A DNA stretch of 64,000 bases from Escherichia coli. Lineage in GTDB: Bacteria > Pseudomonadota > Gammaproteobacteria > Enterobacterales > Enterobacteriaceae. The stretch lies in the NCBI RefSeq assembly GCF_013315695.1, contig NZ_CP054353.1. One strand, 5' to 3'. A program made the position numbers and the translations under genes. Under the pieces are notes generated by a model. That model had not been told where the DNA came from and did not search any database. It saw only the letters and a program-made list of their open reading frames with translations. Shown piece by piece: positions 1 to 26,823 of the stretch (position 1 is the first letter of the stretch; every line of letters starts with the position of its first letter).

Positions 1-459
1 ATCTCCTGGCTCAATGGTTGGACACATACTGTCCCCACGAACGTTGATAACTTTAATGTGATTTGCTGGTCGTCCACCAAACATCGATACAGCATTATCA
101 GTTCTGTATTCAATGGCATGAATCACATCAATGACATCACCGCCCTGGATAAGGCCATTTCCCGCACTGGCACTGACATCCAGCATTTCAATACGGAATA
201 CATCCTTCACCTGCGTAACATCCTCACTAATACTGTTTTTACATACAGTATTACTTTTGAGGTCTGAGGTAAAGAGATCAGCAATATCAACACCTAAGCT
301 CCTGGCAATATTACTCAGGGCTTGTTCAGTGAATTGTTTCTGCTTACCTGTTTCGAGGCGCGAGATATTCGCCGCATCCACTCCTATTGCTTCAGCGAGA
401 TCGGCGATTTTCATGTTCTTCGCCTGGCGAAGTTGTCTGACTCGATTTCCTATGTTCAT
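1..459 (-). CDS. cI-like prophage repressor (HTH plus S24 LexA-like peptidase domain); N-terminus in window, C-terminus runs off the 5' edge
   Basis: Minus-strand translation from ATG at 459 gives MNIGNRVRQLRQAKNMKIADLAEAIGVDAANISRLETGK (XRE HTH) and later ...VINVRGDSMCPTIEPGD (S24 Ser motif GDSM). Divergent from a cro-like gene. Confidence 0.8.
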   Translation of the reverse strand, partial: MNIGNRVRQLRQAKNMKIADLAEAIGVDAANISRLETGKQKQFTEQALSNIARSLGVDIADLFTSDLKSNTVCKNSISEDVTQVKDVFRIEMLDVSASAGNGLIQGGDVIDVIHAIEYRTDNAVSMFGGRPANHIKVINVRGDSMCPTIEPGD

Positions 460-556
460 GCGTTTATTACATTTCTTTATTGCGCGTTAAGCAAATCAAC
501 TTGCGCAAAATATTTGCGTGAAATAATATGCTCATCACGCAATATGTGGAGGTTAT
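460..556. promoter_or_regulatory. Divergent cI/cro operator-promoter region with repeated CGCAA-AT-rich half-sites
   Basis: Near-palindrome TTGCGCAAAATATTTGCGTGAA (about 501-522) and a further CACGCAATATGTG copy (about 534-547) between divergent repressor and cro genes; GGAGG RBS before cro ATG at 557. Confidence 0.5.
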
Positions 557-817
557 ATGCAATCACCATTACGGAATGTGCGTAAGGCGCACGGATTTAC
601 TTTGCAGCATGTTGCTGCGGGCGTTCAGGTCAATCCAGCGACGCTGAGTCGTATTGAAAGACTGGAACAAATTCCATCTATCGATCTTGCAGAACGTCTG
701 GCCAATTTTTTTAAGGGTGAAATCAGCGAAATGCAGATTCTTTATCCGGCACGTTTTCAATCTAGCCAAAACCAGAATGGGTTTAAACCACAGGAACAGG
801 AGGTAAGCCGTGGGTAA
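557..817 (+). CDS. Cro-like HTH (XRE family) regulator
   Basis: 86 aa; HTH motif FTLQHVAAGVQVNPATLSRIE; position and orientation opposite the repressor. Confidence 0.7.
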   Translation: MQSPLRNVRKAHGFTLQHVAAGVQVNPATLSRIERLEQIPSIDLAERLANFFKGEISEMQILYPARFQSSQNQNGFKPQEQEVSRG

Positions 818-1367
818 GCATCATTGGAAAGTGGAAAAACAGCCTGAGTGGTACGTGAAAGCTGTCAGAAAAACTATCGCGGCGTTGCCGGGGGGTTACG
901 CTGAAGCTGCTGAGTGGCTGGATGTAACAGAGAACGCATTATTCAACCGCCTTCGTGCAGATGGCGATCAGATTTTCCCGCTGGGATGGGCAATGGTTTT
1001 ACAGCGTGCGGCTGGCACTCACTACATTGCGGATGCTGTCGCACAGTCTGCTGGTGGGGTGTTCGTATCGCTTCCTGAAATTGAGGCAGTAGAGAACGCC
1101 GATATAAACCAGCGCCTGCTGGAAGTCATTGAACAGATCGGCAGTTATTCCAGACAGATTCGTTCAGCAATCGAAGACGGTGTAGTGGAACCGCATGAGA
1201 AGACAGCAATTAACGACGAACTGTATCTTTCAATTTCGAAGCTCCAGGAGCATGCAGCACTGGTCTACAAAATCTTCTGCGCTCCAGAAAAGAGTAACGC
1301 CCGCGAGTGTGCAGCTCCGGGCGTCGTGGCGTCGATTGCTTCTGGTTGTGGAGAAACTAACGCATGA
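810..1367 (+). CDS. Early-region hypothetical protein in the cII position (possible CII-like regulator)
   Basis: 185 aa ORF, GTG start overlapping cro stop, preceded by GGAGG; function inferred only from position. Confidence 0.45.
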   Translation: MGKHHWKVEKQPEWYVKAVRKTIAALPGGYAEAAEWLDVTENALFNRLRADGDQIFPLGWAMVLQRAAGTHYIADAVAQSAGGVFVSLPEIEAVENADINQRLLEVIEQIGSYSRQIRSAIEDGVVEPHEKTAINDELYLSISKLQEHAALVYKIFCAPEKSNARECAAPGVVASIASGCGETNA

Positions 1368-2509
1368 ATAGTTTAACGGCAAATAACCGTTTGTCGCAAC
1401 AGCTGGTGGTCAGCGTCGCTGAACACCTGTTGTTACGGCATGAATGCAGATTACCAAATCACCTGGCTGTAAGTAACCACAGAGAACTTTACCTGACTGT
1501 GGGGGGCGAGTTGTGCAGGAACTTAACCGCTGGTTTCGTGACGGAAGAGGGCTTTATGTCCATGTTATTCGTTGGGAGCCAGAAACACAGCGCGTTATCT
1601 ATCTTCGCAAAGACTACCCGCATGAGTGCTTTAGTCCTTTGTGGAAATTCAGGCGTGATTTTGTTGAGTGTGAAGGACCACCAGCATATTGATTCTGCAA
1701 TTCCGGGACGTTACACTGTTCAGGCACCTTATAAAGCGGGTGCCGGGATTGGCGTCCTGAAATTCGCACATGCGCATAACCGCGCTTCAGCGGTTTTTTT
1801 GCGCACGTTTCCTCACATCCAAATTATGGTGGGGCGTGCAGGGGCATCGAAAGATGCGCCGGGGTCATGTGCGACCGGTTACGCCAACCCTGTACGTCTC
1901 ACCACCTCTGTGATTGGCGTCCCATGTGGTGAGTTTTCAAAATTCGCACATGAGGATGTCACTATGGCAACCACCCCTACCCAAACTCACCCTAAAATTG
2001 ATGTTATCCATGGGAAGGCTGTTACCTCTTCTTTGGCCGTTGCCGAATATTTCTGCAAGCAGCACAAAAACGTTATTCAAAAAATCCAGACGCTTGAGTG
2101 CTCTGTTGAATTCACTGAGCTGAATTTTCAGCCCAGTGATTACACCGATTGCACAGGCCGCAAACTCCCTTGTTACCAAATCACCCGCGACGGTTTTGCG
2201 TTTCTTGCCATGGGCTTCACGGGGAAACGTGCTGCCCGGTTCAAAGAGGCATACATCAATGCCTTTAACCAGATGGAGAAACAGCTTTCAAATCCCTCTG
2301 TACTGAGCGACGTTGCACATAACGCCAGCGTTCTCTATTCCTACATTTCATCAATTCATCAGGTCTGGCTGCAGCAGCTTTATCCTATGTTGGCAAAAGC
2401 CGAATCTCCGCTGGCTGTTAGCTTGTATGACTATATTAATGATGCTTCGGCGCTGGCCTGCCTCATAAATTTGTCGCTGAATCCTTCAGAGGTAAGGGGG
2501 CGTAAATGA
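1364..2509 (+). CDS. Rha-family phage regulatory protein, copy 1 (Rha core from ATG 1964; N-terminal extent uncertain)
   Basis: C-terminal 180 aa carry Rha signatures (KIDVIHGKAVTSSLAVAEYFCKQHKNVIQKI ... FLAMGFTGKRAARFKEAYINAFNQME). ATGA overlap with upstream stop at 1364; internal ATG 1964 has a GAGGA RBS. Confidence 0.6.
   Translation: MNSLTANNRLSQQLVVSVAEHLLLRHECRLPNHLAVSNHRELYLTVGGELCRNLTAGFVTEEGFMSMLFVGSQKHSALSIFAKTTRMSALVLCGNSGVILLSVKDHQHIDSAIPGRYTVQAPYKAGAGIGVLKFAHAHNRASAVFLRTFPHIQIMVGRAGASKDAPGSCATGYANPVRLTTSVIGVPCGEFSKFAHEDVTMATTPTQTHPKIDVIHGKAVTSSLAVAEYFCKQHKNVIQKIQTLECSVEFTELNFQPSDYTDCTGRKLPCYQITRDGFAFLAMGFTGKRAARFKEAYINAFNQMEKQLSNPSVLSDVAHNASVLYSYISSIHQVWLQQLYPMLAKAESPLAVSLYDYINDASALACLINLSLNPSEVRGRK
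1513..1692 (+). CDS. Small hypothetical protein (59 aa, GTG start), paralog of ORF 3384..3608; overlaps the copy-1 Rha upstream frame
   Basis: Frame-1 translation VQELNRWFRDGRGLYVHVIRWEPETQRVIYLRKDYPHECFSPLWKF... looks protein-like and shows DNA and protein similarity to 3384..3608 (HVLRV...QKVI); GGGGGG RBS-like run before the GTG. Confidence 0.3.
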   Translation: MQELNRWFRDGRGLYVHVIRWEPETQRVIYLRKDYPHECFSPLWKFRRDFVECEGPPAY

Positions 2510-3387
2510 TCCGGAATATTTTCAAACTGTTTACCAATCGCCACCAGCATATTGATTCTGCAATTCCGGGACGTTACACTGTTCAGGCACCTTATAAAGC
2601 GGGTGCCGGGATTGGCGTCCTGAAATTGTCAACGGCGATGTATGACGCGCCAGCGTCTTTTTTATCGTCCGCATTTGCTCACATCCAGATTATGGTGGGC
2701 TGGGCGGGGGCACCGAAAGGTGCGCCGGTCTCCGTTGACGCCGGTTACGCCAACCCCGTCCAGTTCACCACCAGTGAAATTGGCGTTTCCGGTGGTGGAA
2801 GTTTTTCACTGTCAACGGAGGCTGCCATCATGGCTACGATCCCAGCCCTCACTCAACCTGAAATCACCATTGACAACGGCCAGGCCGTTACCACTTCTTT
2901 GGCTGTTGCCAACTTCTTCTCCAAGCGTCACGACGATGTGCTGAAAAAGATCCGCACTCTGGATTGTTCCCCTGAGTTTTGTGCCCGCAATTTTGCGGAG
3001 ACATCGATTTCGGTAAATCAACCGAACGGTGGTACACGCAAGCTCCTTTGCTATCAAATCACACGAGACGGTTTTGCGTTTCTTGCTATGGGTTTCACGG
3101 GTAAACGTGCTGCCCGGTTCAAAGAGGCATACATCAATGCCTTTAACCAGATGGAAAAACTGCTTTCAAAGCCATCCACGCTGAGCGATGCCGCAGATAA
3201 CGCCAGCGTGCTTTACTCCCACCTGTCGGTAATCCACAAGGTCTGGCTGCAGCAGCTTTATCCCATGTTGGCAAAAGCCGAATCCCCGCTGGCTGTAAGT
3301 CTGTATGACCGCATCAACGACGCGGCGCTACTGGCCAGTCTCATAAATTTGTCGCTGAACCCTTCAGAGGTAAGGGGGCGTAAATGA
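2506..3387 (+). CDS. Rha-family phage regulatory protein, copy 2 (tandem paralog)
   Basis: 293 aa; Rha motifs AVTTSLAVANFFSKRHDDVLKKIRTL and FLAMGFTGKRAARFKEAYINAFNQME; ATGA start overlapping the copy-1 stop. Confidence 0.7.
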   Translation: MIRNIFKLFTNRHQHIDSAIPGRYTVQAPYKAGAGIGVLKLSTAMYDAPASFLSSAFAHIQIMVGWAGAPKGAPVSVDAGYANPVQFTTSEIGVSGGGSFSLSTEAAIMATIPALTQPEITIDNGQAVTTSLAVANFFSKRHDDVLKKIRTLDCSPEFCARNFAETSISVNQPNGGTRKLLCYQITRDGFAFLAMGFTGKRAARFKEAYINAFNQMEKLLSKPSTLSDAADNASVLYSHLSVIHKVWLQQLYPMLAKAESPLAVSLYDRINDAALLASLINLSLNPSEVRGRK

Positions 3388-8274: not shown

Positions 8275-8646
8275 ATGCGTGATATTCAAATGGTTCTTGA
8301 ACGTTGGGGGGCATGGGTGGCAAATAATCACGAGGATGTGGAATGGTCATCTGTTGCTGCAGGTTTTAAGGGATTAATTCCTTCGAAAGTAAAATCCCGC
8401 CCGCAATGTAGCGATGACGATGGCCTGATCATTAGCTCTGCGATGACAGTTCTTAAGAAAAAGGAACCGTATCAATACGAATTACTGGAAATGTATTATG
8501 TGTATGGGGTTACATTACGGGTGTTGGGGGTAAAACTGGGGATATCACTTAATCAGGTTGTTATCAGACTGCAGAAAGCTGAAGGGTTTATTGACGGTTG
8601 TCTGGCAATGTTGGGGGTATCTTTAGAAATTGATTGTTACATATAG
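8275..8646 (+). CDS. Late-gene antiterminator Q (QuuD-like)
   Basis: N-terminus MRDIQMVLERWGAWVANNHEDVEWSS matches the QuuD/DLP12-type Q family; sits directly upstream of the late region; GGAG RBS before ATG 8275. Confidence 0.75.
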   Translation: MRDIQMVLERWGAWVANNHEDVEWSSVAAGFKGLIPSKVKSRPQCSDDDGLIISSAMTVLKKKEPYQYELLEMYYVYGVTLRVLGVKLGISLNQVVIRLQKAEGFIDGCLAMLGVSLEIDCYI

Positions 8647-8721
8647 TAATAAATTCAATCAAAGTAAATAATCATATTTTATTATAACCTCCTGATGATA
8701 CCTGTTCATTGGGAGGTTATT

Positions 8722-10691: not shown

Positions 10692-10767
10692 GGCCCTTTA
10701 GCTCAGTGGTGAGAGCGAGCGATTCATAATCGCCAGGTCGCTGGTTCAAATCCAGCAAGGGCCACCA
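10692..10767 (+). tRNA. ileZ: tRNA-Ile2 (anticodon CAU, ileX/ileZ-like)
   Basis: 76 nt cloverleaf GGCCCTT...AAGGGCC-A-CCA; anticodon loop TTCATAA; close to the E. coli ileX sequence. Confidence 0.8.
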
Positions 10768-10774
10768 TCACATA

Positions 10775-10851
10775 CCGCCATTAGCTCATCAGGATAGAGC
10801 GCCAGCCTTCGAAGCTGGTTGCGCGGGGTTCGAGTCCTCGATGGCGGTCCA
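10775..10851 (+). tRNA. argN: tRNA-Arg (anticodon UCG)
   Basis: 77 nt; acceptor CCGCCAT/ATGGCGG; anticodon stem-loop CCAGC-CTTCGAA-GCTGG; T-loop GGTTCGAGTCC; 3' CCA. Confidence 0.8.
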
Positions 10852-10864
10852 TTATCTGTACCCT

Positions 10865-10941
10865 GCGTTATTAGCTCAGCCGGACAGAGCAATTGCCTTC
10901 TAAGCAATCGGTCACTGGTTCGAATCCAGTACAACGCGCCA
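10865..10941 (+). tRNA. argO: tRNA-Arg (anticodon UCU)
   Basis: 77 nt; anticodon loop CCTTCTAAG; T-loop GGTTCGAATCC; 3' GCCA; one acceptor-stem mismatch. Confidence 0.8.
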
Positions 10942-10952
10942 GACTTATTTTT

Positions 10953-10980
10953 CCCGGCTCGCTTTTGCGGGCTTTTTTTT
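10953..10980 (+). terminator. Terminator-like hairpin plus T8 after the tRNA cluster
   Basis: GCTCGC-TTTT-GCGGGC followed by TTTTTTTT. Confidence 0.45.
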
Positions 10981-11433
10981 AAATGTCTCACAATTCAGAC
11001 GGTTGACAGTTGTCTGTTTTGCGGGGAGTTTGTTAAAAGAAACTGGCATGGTGAATCCCCCTGTGCGGAGGGGCAATCAGCAACTGGTGTTTTGTCACCG
11101 ACCCTTATCCTTTCTGTGCGGGTTCAGGTGCTGATACTGAACTCACCGGGAGGCACCCGGCATCATGTGCATGATGATACAGATACGCGGCTTTAGCCCC
11201 TCTCCGGAGGGGCTTTCTTGTGGGCAAAAAAAAGCCCGAGTGGGTTCGGGCAACAGCATGAGATATACATTTTTATAATCGAATGGATTTTAACCAGAAT
11301 TCATAAGGCTGCGCAACTGCGCGGTCTTTTTCGAATTGCGGGCTGTCGTCTCTCTTCTGCCATTGTCCTGTAACTTCCGGACTTCAGCCCGCTCCTTATT
11401 TTACTCACAATATTATCCCGGCCGGGAGGATTC

Positions 11434-26247: not shown

Positions 26248-26823
26248 ATGGCGATAAAAGGGCTTGATCAGGCGATTGATAATCTGAGCCGGGTTCGTAA
26301 AAACGCCATTCCGGCGGCTTCAGCAATGACGATTAACCGCGTGGCCACAACGGCGATTAATCAGTCTTCATCACAGGTTGCCCGGGAGACAAAGGTACGC
26401 CGGAAACTGGTTAAGGAACGGTCCAGACTGAAACGGGCCACGGTCAGAAATCCGAATGCAAAAATTATCGTTAACCGCGGTGATCTCCCTGTGATTAAGC
26501 TGGGGATCAGAATGCTGGGGCGTCGTCCGGACAGCATACTCAAAGCCGGTCAGCATCGTTATCAGCGGGCATTTATCCAGCGATTAAATAATGGGCGCTG
26601 GCATGTTATGCAACGTCTTCCCCAGGCCAGATATGAGGAGGGCAATGACGACAAGGGAAGGAAAAAGCGTAATCGCCTTCCCATTCAGGTGGTGAAAATC
26701 CCGATGGCGGCCCCACTGAAACAGGCATTTGATGAGAATGTTGACCGTATCCGGCGTGAACGCCTGCCTAAAGAACTGGCATACGCGCTGAAACAACAAC
26801 TGAGGATTGCGATAAAACGATGA
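26248..26823 (+). CDS. Z: Tail completion protein gpZ
   Basis: 191 aa; MAIKGL...VARETKVRRKLVKERSRLKRATV...[22 protein letters not shown] parallels lambda Z. Confidence 0.8.
   Translation: MAIKGLDQAIDNLSRVRKNAIPAASAMTINRVATTAINQSSSQVARETKVRRKLVKERSRLKRATVRNPNAKIIVNRGDLPVIKLGIRMLGRRPDSILKAGQHRYQRAFIQRLNNGRWHVMQRLPQARYEEGNDDKGRKKRNRLPIQVVKIPMAAPLKQAFDENVDRIRRERLPKELAYALKQQLRIAIKR

What the first reader, a model, noticed from the sequence alone, without database searches (positions are those of the whole stretch)
460..556. Immunity-region operators with a CGCAA(A/T)ATAT-type half-site
Three related sites (about 501-512, 514-529 inverted, 534-547) lie between the divergent repressor and cro genes, the expected OR arrangement. 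The half-site differs from lambda's, which implies a distinct immunity specificity.
Basis: partly seen in the sequence, partly recalled or inferred. Interest (0 to 1): 0.3.

Follow-up and report, generated by a model that had tools for sequence, protein, structure and literature searches.

The report
Prophage repressor operators, TTGCG-N5-CGCAA type

Summary
The region is a real right operator (OR) of a lambdoid prophage, the mEp460/SfII/Stx2a_1447 immunity type. The window is 100% identical to E. coli MSB1_4I. The pentamer TTGCG/CGCAA occurs 5 times in the 97-bp gap against 0.23 expected.

Comparison with about 55 distinct related OR regions shows the operator is a 15-bp pseudo-palindrome, TTGCG-N5-CGCAA, with conserved arms and a free centre. 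It is not CGCAA(A/T)ATAT.

Sites in the window:
- ORa, 480-494.
- ORb, 501-515. The left half, TTGCGCAA, is invariant. The right half is degenerate in this phage.
- ORc, 528-542.
- A fourth conserved palindrome inside cro codons 8-12, at 578-592.

The predicted second cluster exists. Two sites 23 bp apart lie 290-327 bp left of the window start, between the cI terminator and a leftward promoter. The refutation test is therefore passed.

Inferred promoters each place their -35 hexamer in an operator half-site. The repressor has an HTH domain plus an S24 autocleavage domain.

This is a new member of a known kind and of low interest. The intragenic cro site is the only mildly unusual feature. No binding was tested.

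The parts
1..459 (-). First 153 codons of a 230-aa cI-type repressor. It has an N-terminal Cro/C1-type HTH. The Ala99-Gly100 and Ser144 of its S24 autocleavage domain fall inside the window. The rest of the gene lies left of the window.
   Evidence: Pfam HTH_3/HTH_26 over residues 7-64. The full-length protein from L001 adds Peptidase_S24 over residues 104-218. PHROG annotation is 'transcriptional repressor / CI-like repressor'. The nearest solved relatives are a 434-type HTH and UmuD.
466..471 (-). Candidate PRM -10 hexamer, TGTAAT on the minus strand. It places +1 at the A of the cI ATG (459), giving a leaderless cI mRNA as in lambda. This is inferred.
   Evidence: ATTACA is invariant in 55 distinct related OR sequences. 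The distant Yersinia, Morganella and Cronobacter phages carry TTCAAT or TTGAAT at or within 1 bp of the same distance from the ATG. No Shine-Dalgarno sequence precedes the ATG. It lacks the consensus A at position 2 and is not called by the promoter scan.
480..494 (.). ORa, TTGCGCGTTAAGCAA. This is the repressor-proximal operator and the positional equivalent of lambda OR3. Its right arm, read on the minus strand (TTGCTT, 494..489), is the candidate PRM -35.
   Evidence: It ranks first of 64,000 positions in the window with a weight matrix built only from relatives (15.7 bits). The arms are conserved and the centre is variable in 54-55 relatives, always 21 bp before ORb. It is an exact match to TTGC-N7-GCAA.
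501..515 (.). ORb position, TTGCGCAAAATATTT. The left arm, within the palindrome TTGCGCAA (501-508), is invariant. The right arm is degenerate in this phage. 501-506 TTGCGC is also the candidate PR -35.
   Evidence: The block GC(A/G)ACTTGCGCAA (496-508) is essentially invariant. The 15-mer scores at least 8 bits in 36 of 54 distinct relatives, for example TTGCGCAATTCGCTA, but -4.2 here. TTGCGC-N16/17-TAAYAT is kept even in the distant phages.
514..521 (.). Lineage-specific extra half-site, TTGCGTGA. Its role is unresolved.
   Evidence: It is a perfect 8-bp inverted partner of 535-542 and a near-direct repeat of 501-512. It is present only in the window/mEp460/SfII group and falls in the variable columns 509-523 of the family alignment. 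As a 15-mer it ranks 154th.
524..529 (+). Candidate PR -10, TAATAT. Predicted +1 is about 534-537. This is inferred.
   Evidence: TAA(T/C)AT is conserved 17 bp after TTGCGC in all relatives and at 16-17 bp in the distant group. It is below the threshold of the consensus scan.
528..542 (.). ORc, ATGCTCATCACGCAA. This is the cro-proximal operator, overlapping the PR -10 and +1, and the positional equivalent of lambda OR1.
   Evidence: It ranks second of 64,000 positions (13.5 bits). The arms ATGCG/CGCAA are conserved and the centre is free, always 27 bp after ORb. Relatives carry the near-perfect palindrome ATGCGTAATACGCAA.
549..553 (+). Shine-Dalgarno sequence GGAGG of cro.
   Evidence: Read directly from the sequence and conserved in relatives.
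557..817 (+). cro-like gene, 86 aa, HTH_3. It is the first gene of the rightward operon and is followed by a ymfL/CII(CP76)-like gene at 810-1367.
   Evidence: ORF list, Pfam HTH_3 and Phage_CP76, PHROG 'CII-like transcriptional activator' for the next gene.
578..592 (.). Fourth operator-like palindrome, GTGCGTAAGGCGCAC, inside cro codons 8-12.
   Evidence: 47 of 48 distinct related cro starts keep [ATG]TGCG-N5-CGCA[ATC]. Leu8 is always TTG, Arg9 always CGN and Ser11 always TCG, while the same residues elsewhere in cro use 4-6 codons. The arms survive amino-acid changes, for example MRIAH = ATGCGCATTGCGCAT. It always starts 77-78 bp after ORb. In this window it is the weakest copy in the family (5.5 bits; rank 23).

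Best explanation
This is the right operator region of a lambda-type lysis/lysogeny switch. The operator unit is a 15-bp pseudo-palindrome, TTGCG-N5-CGCAA.

Proposed binding and repression:
- A dimer of the 230-aa CI-type repressor (434-like helix-turn-helix N-terminal domain, LexA/UmuD-like S24 C-terminal domain) is proposed to bind each unit through the two outer 5-bp arms.
- ORc (528-542) covers the -10 and start site of the rightward promoter PR, so bound repressor shuts off cro and the lytic genes.
- ORb (501-515) shares its left arm with the PR -35. In this phage it is only a half-site.
- ORa (480-494) covers the -35 and spacer of the repressor's own promoter PRM. That makes it the site for negative autoregulation and/or for Cro to switch the repressor off.
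- A pair of the same sites 23 bp apart (OL), just past the cI terminator and about 800 bp from OR, covers the -35 of a leftward promoter PL.
- A fourth site inside cro codons 8-12 probably adds repressor occupancy downstream of PR, as a roadblock or as an extra contact for looping and cooperativity.

Induction would follow RecA-stimulated self-cleavage at Ala99-Gly100.

What is shown: the sites, their positions, their conservation pattern, the OL cluster and the protein domains.

What is inferred: which protein binds, the promoter assignments, the leaderless cI mRNA, and the role of each site.
For: Gene context: a divergent HTH+S24 repressor and an HTH cro, followed by a CII(CP76)-like gene.

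Enrichment: 5 core pentamers in 97 bp against 0.23 expected.

Independent test: a weight matrix built only from relatives ranks 480-494 and 528-542 first and second of 64,000 window positions. In the 19.4-kb L001 the top four are OL1, ORa, OL2 and ORc.

Operator signature: across 55 distinct OR sequences the arms are invariant and the 5-bp centres vary freely. The site spacing is fixed at 21 / 27 / 77-78 bp.

OL: two sites sit between the cI terminator hairpin and a conserved TATCTT -10 in all 62 distinct relatives.

Distant relatives: the architecture is kept in Yersinia, Morganella and Cronobacter phages whose repressor DNA-binding domain is only 41-55% identical. There the outer arm base shifts, giving ATGCG-N5-CGCAT.

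Codon evidence: codon usage shows nucleotide-level selection on the in-cro site.

Protein homology: the CI N-terminal domain aligns to a 434-type repressor domain and the C-terminal domain to UmuD.

Precedent: HK022 CI has the same short OL-OR distance (about 700 bp), loops OL to OR, and has an extra operator downstream of OR (PMC8053113).
Against: - No binding, footprint or transcription-start data exist for this immunity type in the literature I could search.
- The promoter hexamers are weak by consensus. TTGCGC and TTGCAT match 3 of 6. The PRM -10 lacks the A at position 2. None passes the promoter scan.
- Single-site scores (13-16 bits) are no higher than the best chance hit in a shuffled 64-kb sequence (mean 12.4, maximum 20). 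The case therefore rests on position and conservation, not on score.
- In this phage ORb has no right arm, ORc has a mismatched left arm (ATGCT), and the in-cro site is weak. The window's copy is the poorest match in the family.
- BLASTP finds no significant similarity between the CI N-terminal domain and Cro. That both bind the same sites rests only on analogy and on a shared S-R-x-E in the recognition helix, read by eye.
Confidence: 0.8

Rival explanations
1. Three operators at 501-512, 514-529 and 534-547 are built from a CGCAA(A/T)ATAT half-site, in a lambda-like OR1-OR2-OR3 row.
For: CGCAAAATAT (504-513) and CGCAATATGT (538-547) are present. 501-512 and 514-525 are a 10/12 direct repeat, and 514-521 is a perfect inverted partner of 535-542. 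These features are kept within the immediate immunity group, including SfII.
Against: - The (A/T)ATAT extension and the TTGCG at 514 fall in the least conserved columns of the family alignment (509-523).
- The OL sites do not carry the extension.
- The model ignores 480-494, the top-scoring site.
- Its three sites lie 13 and about 20 bp apart, too close for three dimers on 15-17-bp sites.
- The everted 504-518 arrangement scores -40.7 bits against the family matrix.
Confidence: 0.08
2. The repeats are only promoter elements, because TTGCxx resembles the -35 consensus TTGACA. Several overlapping promoters would explain them, with no dedicated repressor sites.
For: Every inferred -35 (PR TTGCGC, PRM TTGCTT, PL TTGCAT) coincides with an operator arm.
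Against: - The partner arms CGCAA, exactly 5 bp away, are as conserved as the TTGCG arms.
- ORc sits on the -10 and +1, not on a -35.
- OL2 lies upstream of the PL -35.
- The in-cro site has no promoter context, yet it is held by codon-level selection.
Confidence: 0.04
3. The palindromes act as RNA hairpins. ORc would act in the cro 5' leader and 578-592 in the cro coding region, controlling translation, stability or attenuation.
For: 578-592 was flagged as a terminator-like hairpin. ORc and the in-cro site are both transcribed from PR.
Against: - ORa, OL1 and OL2 lie outside the predicted transcripts.
- The outermost base pair of the in-cro palindrome is not kept as a pair: T..T in 17 and T..C in 10 of 48 distinct sequences.
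- The stems are only 4-5 bp, and the T-run after 578-592 is poor.
Confidence: 0.05
4. The central CGCAAAATATTTGCG (504-518) is a host-factor site, a PurR/LacI-type box resembling ACGCAAACGTTTGCGT.
For: Resemblance of the arms CGCAAA/TTTGCG, recalled from memory of the PurR box and not tested here.
Against: The spacing is one base longer than in a PurR box. The right arm is absent from nearly all relatives.
Confidence: 0.02

Closest known systems
Phage lambda OR/OL with CI and Cro
   Same: - Divergent cI and cro genes around an intergenic operator row of about 100 bp.
- A second operator cluster on the far side of cI that controls a leftward promoter.
- A repressor with an HTH domain and an S24 autocleavage domain.
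- Operators that overlap PR and PRM.
- A probable leaderless cI message.
   Different: - The motif is TTGCG-N5-CGCAA (15 bp), not the 17-bp TATCACCGCCAGTGGTA type.
- Centre spacings are 21 and 27 bp instead of 24 and 23.
- OL has two sites, not three.
- OL and OR are about 0.8 kb apart, not 2.3 kb.
- There is an extra site inside cro.
- The CI here is not a sequence relative of lambda CI in the DNA-binding domain.
Phage HK022 CI and its operators, including the far-right operator (Carlson and Little 1993, as summarised in PMC8053113)
   Same: - The C-terminal domain is about 43% identical.
- OL and OR are only about 700 bp apart.
- HK022 CI loops OL to OR.
- There is an additional repressor site downstream of OR that contributes to immunity.
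   Different: - The N-terminal DNA-binding domain is unrelated, and the HK022 OR region shows a different inverted-repeat motif (TGAAC..GTTCA, read by eye).
- HK022's extra site is about 300 bp downstream of OR. Here the extra site is 50 bp downstream of ORc, inside cro.
434 repressor / 434 operators (XRE-type HTH)
   Same: The nearest solved relative of the N-terminal domain is a 434-type repressor domain (1sq8, E = 2e-4). The operators also share the same logic: conserved outer arms that are contacted, and a variable centre that is not contacted (established knowledge of 434).
   Different: 434 sites are 14 bp, ACAA-N6-TTGT. At the positions aligned to 434's base-contacting Gln28, Gln29 and Gln33, this CI has Ala, Ala and Arg (alignment).
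Homologous immunity regions of mEp460, SfII, Stx2a_1447/WGPS2, phiSTEC1575-Stx2k, 1720a-02 and ST64B (sb38/sb39)
   Same: The E. coli and Shigella phages listed share the repressor at 97-100% identity and the same operators. ST64B and the Klebsiella phages share an identical recognition-helix segment (VDAANISRLETGKQ) and the same motif.
   Different: None of these records annotates operators. I found no published analysis of them.

Membership tests
Lambdoid immunity region (cI - OR - cro, plus OL) | Divergently transcribed repressor (HTH + S24 peptidase) and small HTH cro gene, separated by a short intergenic region | tested here: met
   ORFs at 1-459(-) and 557-817(+). Pfam HTH_3 plus Peptidase_S24 for the repressor and HTH_3 for cro.
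Lambdoid immunity region (cI - OR - cro, plus OL) | Several related pseudo-palindromic operators in the intergenic region | tested here: met
   480-494 and 528-542 rank first and second in the window with a matrix built from relatives. ORb at 501-515 is a good site in 36 of 54 relatives but a half-site here.
Lambdoid immunity region (cI - OR - cro, plus OL) | Second operator cluster with the same motif on the other side of the repressor gene, at a leftward promoter | tested here: met
   L001 8673-8687 and 8696-8710. The same pair is present in all 62 distinct relatives, next to the cI terminator.
Lambdoid immunity region (cI - OR - cro, plus OL) | Operators overlap the core elements of PR, PRM and PL | tested here: inconclusive
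   Hexamers with conserved 16-17-bp spacing coincide with operator arms in all relatives. They are weak by consensus and are not called by the scan. There are no transcription-start data.
Lambdoid immunity region (cI - OR - cro, plus OL) | CI and Cro physically bind these sites | not testable with these tools
   This needs EMSA, footprinting or ChIP.
Lambdoid immunity region (cI - OR - cro, plus OL) | RecA-dependent autocleavage motifs (Ala-Gly site, Ser/Lys dyad) | tested here: met
   Ala99-Gly100, Ser144 (in GDSM) and Lys181 (in VKRL) are read in the translation. The S24 domain match is and the UmuD alignment. Cleavage itself was not tested.
Lambda-specific OR geometry (three sites 23-24 bp apart, OR1-OR2 pairwise cooperativity) | Three full sites at 23-24-bp centre spacing | tested here: not met
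   Centres are at 487, 508 and 535, giving spacings of 21 and 27 bp, fixed in 54 of 54 relatives. ORb is degenerate in this phage.
   Columns 509-523 and 543-547 are variable. The OL sites lack the extension.
HK022 immunity specificity | Homologous DNA-binding domain and the same operator motif | tested here: not met
   Only the C-terminal domain aligns. The HK022 OR region shows TGAAC/GTTCA-type repeats.
e14 (ymfK/ymfT) immunity specificity | Homologous repressor and the same operator motif | tested here: not met
   YmfK is 24% identical. The e14 intergenic region carries GTAC-based repeats. Only the downstream ymfL gene is shared.

The most novel reading that the evidence does not exclude
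The switch has a fourth, intragenic operator. A TTGCG-N5-CGCAA site is embedded in cro codons 8-12 and is held by selection on codon choice in 47 of 48 distinct relatives from enterobacterial phages and viral contigs. It would act as a built-in 'antivirulence' or roadblock site, so that operator mutations in OR alone cannot free PR. The window's immunity group would be a lineage in which ORb has decayed to a half-site and a new half-site (514-521) has arisen, that is, an operator row caught while being rewired.
Probability: 0.4. Interest if true: 0.4.

Novelty: new member of a known kind. Interest (0 to 1): 0.22.

Why it matters
It gives a testable operator map for a very common enterobacterial prophage immunity type. 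About 1,000 of 5,426 complete E. coli genomes carry most of the cI-cro-ymfL stretch used as query (window 1-1400). The carriers include Stx2-converting phages and the Shigella serotype-converting phage SfII. A known motif lets one predict cross-immunity between phages of E. coli, Salmonella and Klebsiella that share the same recognition helix. It also helps in designing reporters or virulent mutants. The mechanism itself is textbook, and nothing here challenges it.

Tried and rejected
- HK022 as a model for the motif. Its CI matches only in the C-terminal domain, and its operators differ.
- e14 (ymfK/ymfT), suggested by the 'YmfL' annotation. It is a different repressor with different, GTAC-type repeats.
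- The everted palindrome CGCAAAATATTTGCG (504-518) as the central operator. It sits exactly midway between ORa and ORc, but it is not conserved and scores -40.7 bits.
- The minus-strand promoter TCCACA-16-TATTAT (550..523), the only hit of the consensus scan. By eye it is not conserved in the relatives.
- The first IMG/VR scan with the window's own cI. It returned only 99-100% identical copies and so was useless for covariation. The scan with the Flotzy cI gave the diverse set.
- BLASTP of the CI N-terminal domain against Cro found no alignment.
- Rfam searches of the OL/PL leader and of OR found nothing, even at E <= 1. The fold of the PL leader is not significant (z = -1.4).
- Literature searches for the phage names and for the exact site strings found no description of these operators. 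Carlson and Little 1993 is not held.
- Other matrix hits in the window (2313-2327, 26599-26613, 8275-8289, 3074-3088 and 2196-2210, at 10-12 bits). All fall within the range of the best chance hits in shuffled sequence, so I treat them as chance.

Full report
**What is there**

The window opens inside a gene on the minus strand whose start codon is at 459..457. A plus-strand gene starts at 557.
- The minus-strand product carries a Cro/C1-type helix-turn-helix domain.
- The full 230-aa protein, read from the identical genome record, adds a Peptidase_S24 domain. It falls in PHROG families of CI-like repressors.
- The plus-strand gene encodes an 86-aa HTH_3 protein. A CII(CP76)/YmfL-like gene follows it.

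So the 97-bp gap at 460-556 lies where a lambdoid right operator should lie.

**Where the window comes from**

- Bases 1-1400 are 100% identical to the chromosome of E. coli MSB1_4I.
- They are 92-98% identical to phages mEp460, PhiR47_1, phiSTEC1575-Stx2k, 1720a-02, Stx2a_1447/WGPS2 and SfII.
- Most of this stretch is present in 1,025 of 5,426 complete E. coli genomes.
- I fetched the flanking genome as L001, where L001 position = window position + 9000.

**Check of the observation**

- The pentamer TTGCG or its complement CGCAA starts at 480, 501, 504, 514 and 538. That is five copies in 97 bp against 0.23 expected, and it is the maximum for any 97-bp stretch in the window.
- The repeat finder shows the whole segment 478-544 is a rough dyad about 511. 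It also shows a perfect 8-bp inverted pair at 514-521 / 535-542.
As a 10-mer it is only weakly enriched in the window, and most matches lie elsewhere.

The repeated core is therefore real and far beyond chance. The proposed extension and boundaries needed testing against relatives.

**Comparative evidence**

I collected related immunity regions in three ways:
- tblastn of the repressor against phage genomes;
- retrieval of the surrounding DNA;
- a scan of IMG/VR with the Flotzy repressor, which returned 80 loci at 68-100% identity.

This gave 55 distinct OR sequences and 62 distinct sequences downstream of the repressor gene.

The OR alignment needs only a handful of single-base gaps, and it shows a sharp pattern:
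- TTTTTGCG (477-484) and (T)GCAAA (489-495) are conserved around a free centre.
- GC(A/G)ACTTGCGCAA (496-508) is essentially invariant.
- 509-523 is variable.
- TAA (524-526) and ATGCG (528-532) are conserved. 533-537 is free. CGCAA (538-542) is invariant.
- Inside cro, (T)TGCG (578-582) and CGCA (588-591) are conserved around a free centre.

This is the classic signature of dimer-binding operators. The unit is 15 bp, TTGCG-N5-CGCAA.

**An independent test on the window**

I built a weight matrix only from the relatives' sites and scanned the window with it.
- 480-494 ranked first and 528-542 ranked second of 64,000 positions.
- In the 19.4-kb L001 the top four were the two OL sites, ORa and ORc.
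- Single scores of 13-21 bits are not by themselves above the best chance hit in shuffled sequence (mean 12.4). The weight of the argument lies in position and conservation.

**The second cluster**

- It exists at L001 8673-8687 (TTGCGCATTATGCAA) and 8696-8710 (TTGCGAGATAAGCAA). That is 290-327 bp to the left of the window's first base.
- It sits just past a terminator hairpin that ends the repressor transcript (L001 8745..8728, minus strand).
- Every one of the 62 distinct relatives has at least one such site here, and all but a few have the pair. The starts are 22-24 bp apart and the pair is followed by a conserved AAGATAA-type motif (TTATCTT on the transcribed strand).
- OL and OR are about 0.8 kb apart, as in HK022 (about 700 bp), where CI has been shown to loop OL to OR (PMC8053113).

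- Site 1 (501-512) is the left part of the family's middle operator, ORb (501-515). In 36 of 54 distinct relatives that 15-mer is a good site, for example TTGCGCAATTCGCTA at 8-14 bits. In this phage the right arm is lost (TATTT; -4.2 bits).
- Site 3 (534-547) is the right arm of ORc plus flanking bases.
- Site 2 (514-529) contains a TTGCG found only in the window/mEp460/SfII group. It falls in the variable columns.

**The site inside cro**

Of 48 distinct related cro starts, 47 keep [ATG]TGCG-N5-CGCA[ATC] over codons 8-12.
- Leu8 is always TTG, while Leu5 and Leu16 use five or six codons.
- Arg9 is always CGN, while Arg6 is mostly AGA.
- Ser11 is always TCG, while Ser3 and Ser17 vary.
- When the amino acids change, the arms stay. 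MRIAH, for example, is encoded as ATGCGCATTGCGCAT.
- The outer positions are not kept as a base pair (T..T in 17, T..C in 10). This argues against an RNA stem and for a DNA site.
- In the window this copy, GTGCGTAAGGCGCAC, is the weakest in the family (5.5 bits).

**Promoters (inference)**

Three hexamer pairs with conserved 16-17-bp spacing coincide with operator arms in the relatives, including the distant group:
- PR: TTGCGC (501-506) and TAATAT (524-529).
- PRM: TTGCTT (494..489) and TGTAAT (471..466). This places +1 on the A of the cI ATG, with no Shine-Dalgarno sequence in front, so the message would be leaderless as in lambda.
- PL: TTGCAT and TATCTT (L001 8687..8682 and 8664..8659).

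Each -35 is the first half of a 15-bp operator. All are weak by consensus. The PRM -10 lacks the A at position 2. None passes the promoter scan. These assignments need transcription-start mapping.

**Mechanism I commit to**

- CI dimers bind the arms of TTGCG-N5-CGCAA.
- ORc, and ORb where it is intact, block PR.
- ORa covers PRM and serves autoregulation or Cro action.
- The OL pair blocks PL.
- The in-cro site adds occupancy downstream of PR.
- RecA-stimulated cleavage at Ala99-Gly100 (Ser144/Lys181 dyad) lifts repression.

The CI N-terminal domain aligns with a 434-type repressor domain, and the C-terminal domain aligns with UmuD. Cro shares S-R-x-E in the aligned recognition helix by eye, but BLASTP finds no significant similarity between the two. 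That both proteins bind the same sites is therefore analogy with lambda, not a result.

**Comparison with known systems**

- The organisation is that of lambda.
- The short OL-OR distance and an extra downstream operator recall HK022. HK022's DNA-binding domain and operators are unrelated.
- e14, suggested by the YmfL annotation, has a different repressor and different repeats.
- Phages of Yersinia, Morganella and Cronobacter, whose DNA-binding domain is only 41-55% identical, keep the same layout with ATGCG-N5-CGCAT.
- ST64B and several Klebsiella phages have an identical recognition-helix segment and the same motif. They may therefore be homoimmune with this prophage. This was not tested.

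**Novelty**

I found no description of these operators in the searchable literature, and the phage records do not annotate them. The operator set appears undescribed, but it is an ordinary member of a very well known kind. The intragenic cro site and the partly decayed ORb with a lineage-specific extra half-site are the only features that might repay an experiment.

Noticed in passing
window 1364-3387 (isrK 1724-1800 and 2587-2663; C4 antisense RNA 1822-1909 and 2688-2775): Two tandem genes each combine an Ash domain and a Rha domain. Each contains an isrK-like RNA followed by a C4 antisense RNA match. This is a duplicated P1/P7 immI-style (c4/antirepressor) module sitting directly downstream of cro-ymfL, and so a possible second layer of immunity control.
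   Followed up: partly
window 10692-11281: Three tRNA genes are followed by an STnc100 sRNA match (11017-11225) and, on the minus strand, an AsxR 'anti-stx2' sRNA match at exactly its gathering score (11229-11281). This looks like the late-region layout of Stx-type lambdoid phages.
   Followed up: no
window 52220-52295 (-): OrzO-P antitoxin RNA match (98.9 bits), pointing to a zor-orz type I toxin-antitoxin locus. This is probably repeat structure of that locus and unrelated to the operators.
   Followed up: no
L001 8080-8660 (left of the window): About 580 bp with no annotated gene lie between the inferred PL and rdgC. There is no Rfam match and no significant fold. Relatives carry one of two conserved PL-proximal leader types. 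One of them is shared with e14 and ST64B. This prophage lacks an annotated N gene, so it could be an HK022-put-like or other antitermination element.
   Followed up: partly
L001 864-3349 (left of the window): The prophage integrase next to mlrA is split by an IS5-like ISKpn26 insertion, and several early-left genes are annotated as pseudogenes. The prophage is probably defective for excision.
   Followed up: no
window 8275-8289: ATGCGTGATATTCAA is an 11.6-bit match to the operator matrix. It begins exactly at the start codon of the antiterminator Q gene (L001 17275). The score is within chance range, so I treat it as coincidence.
   Followed up: no
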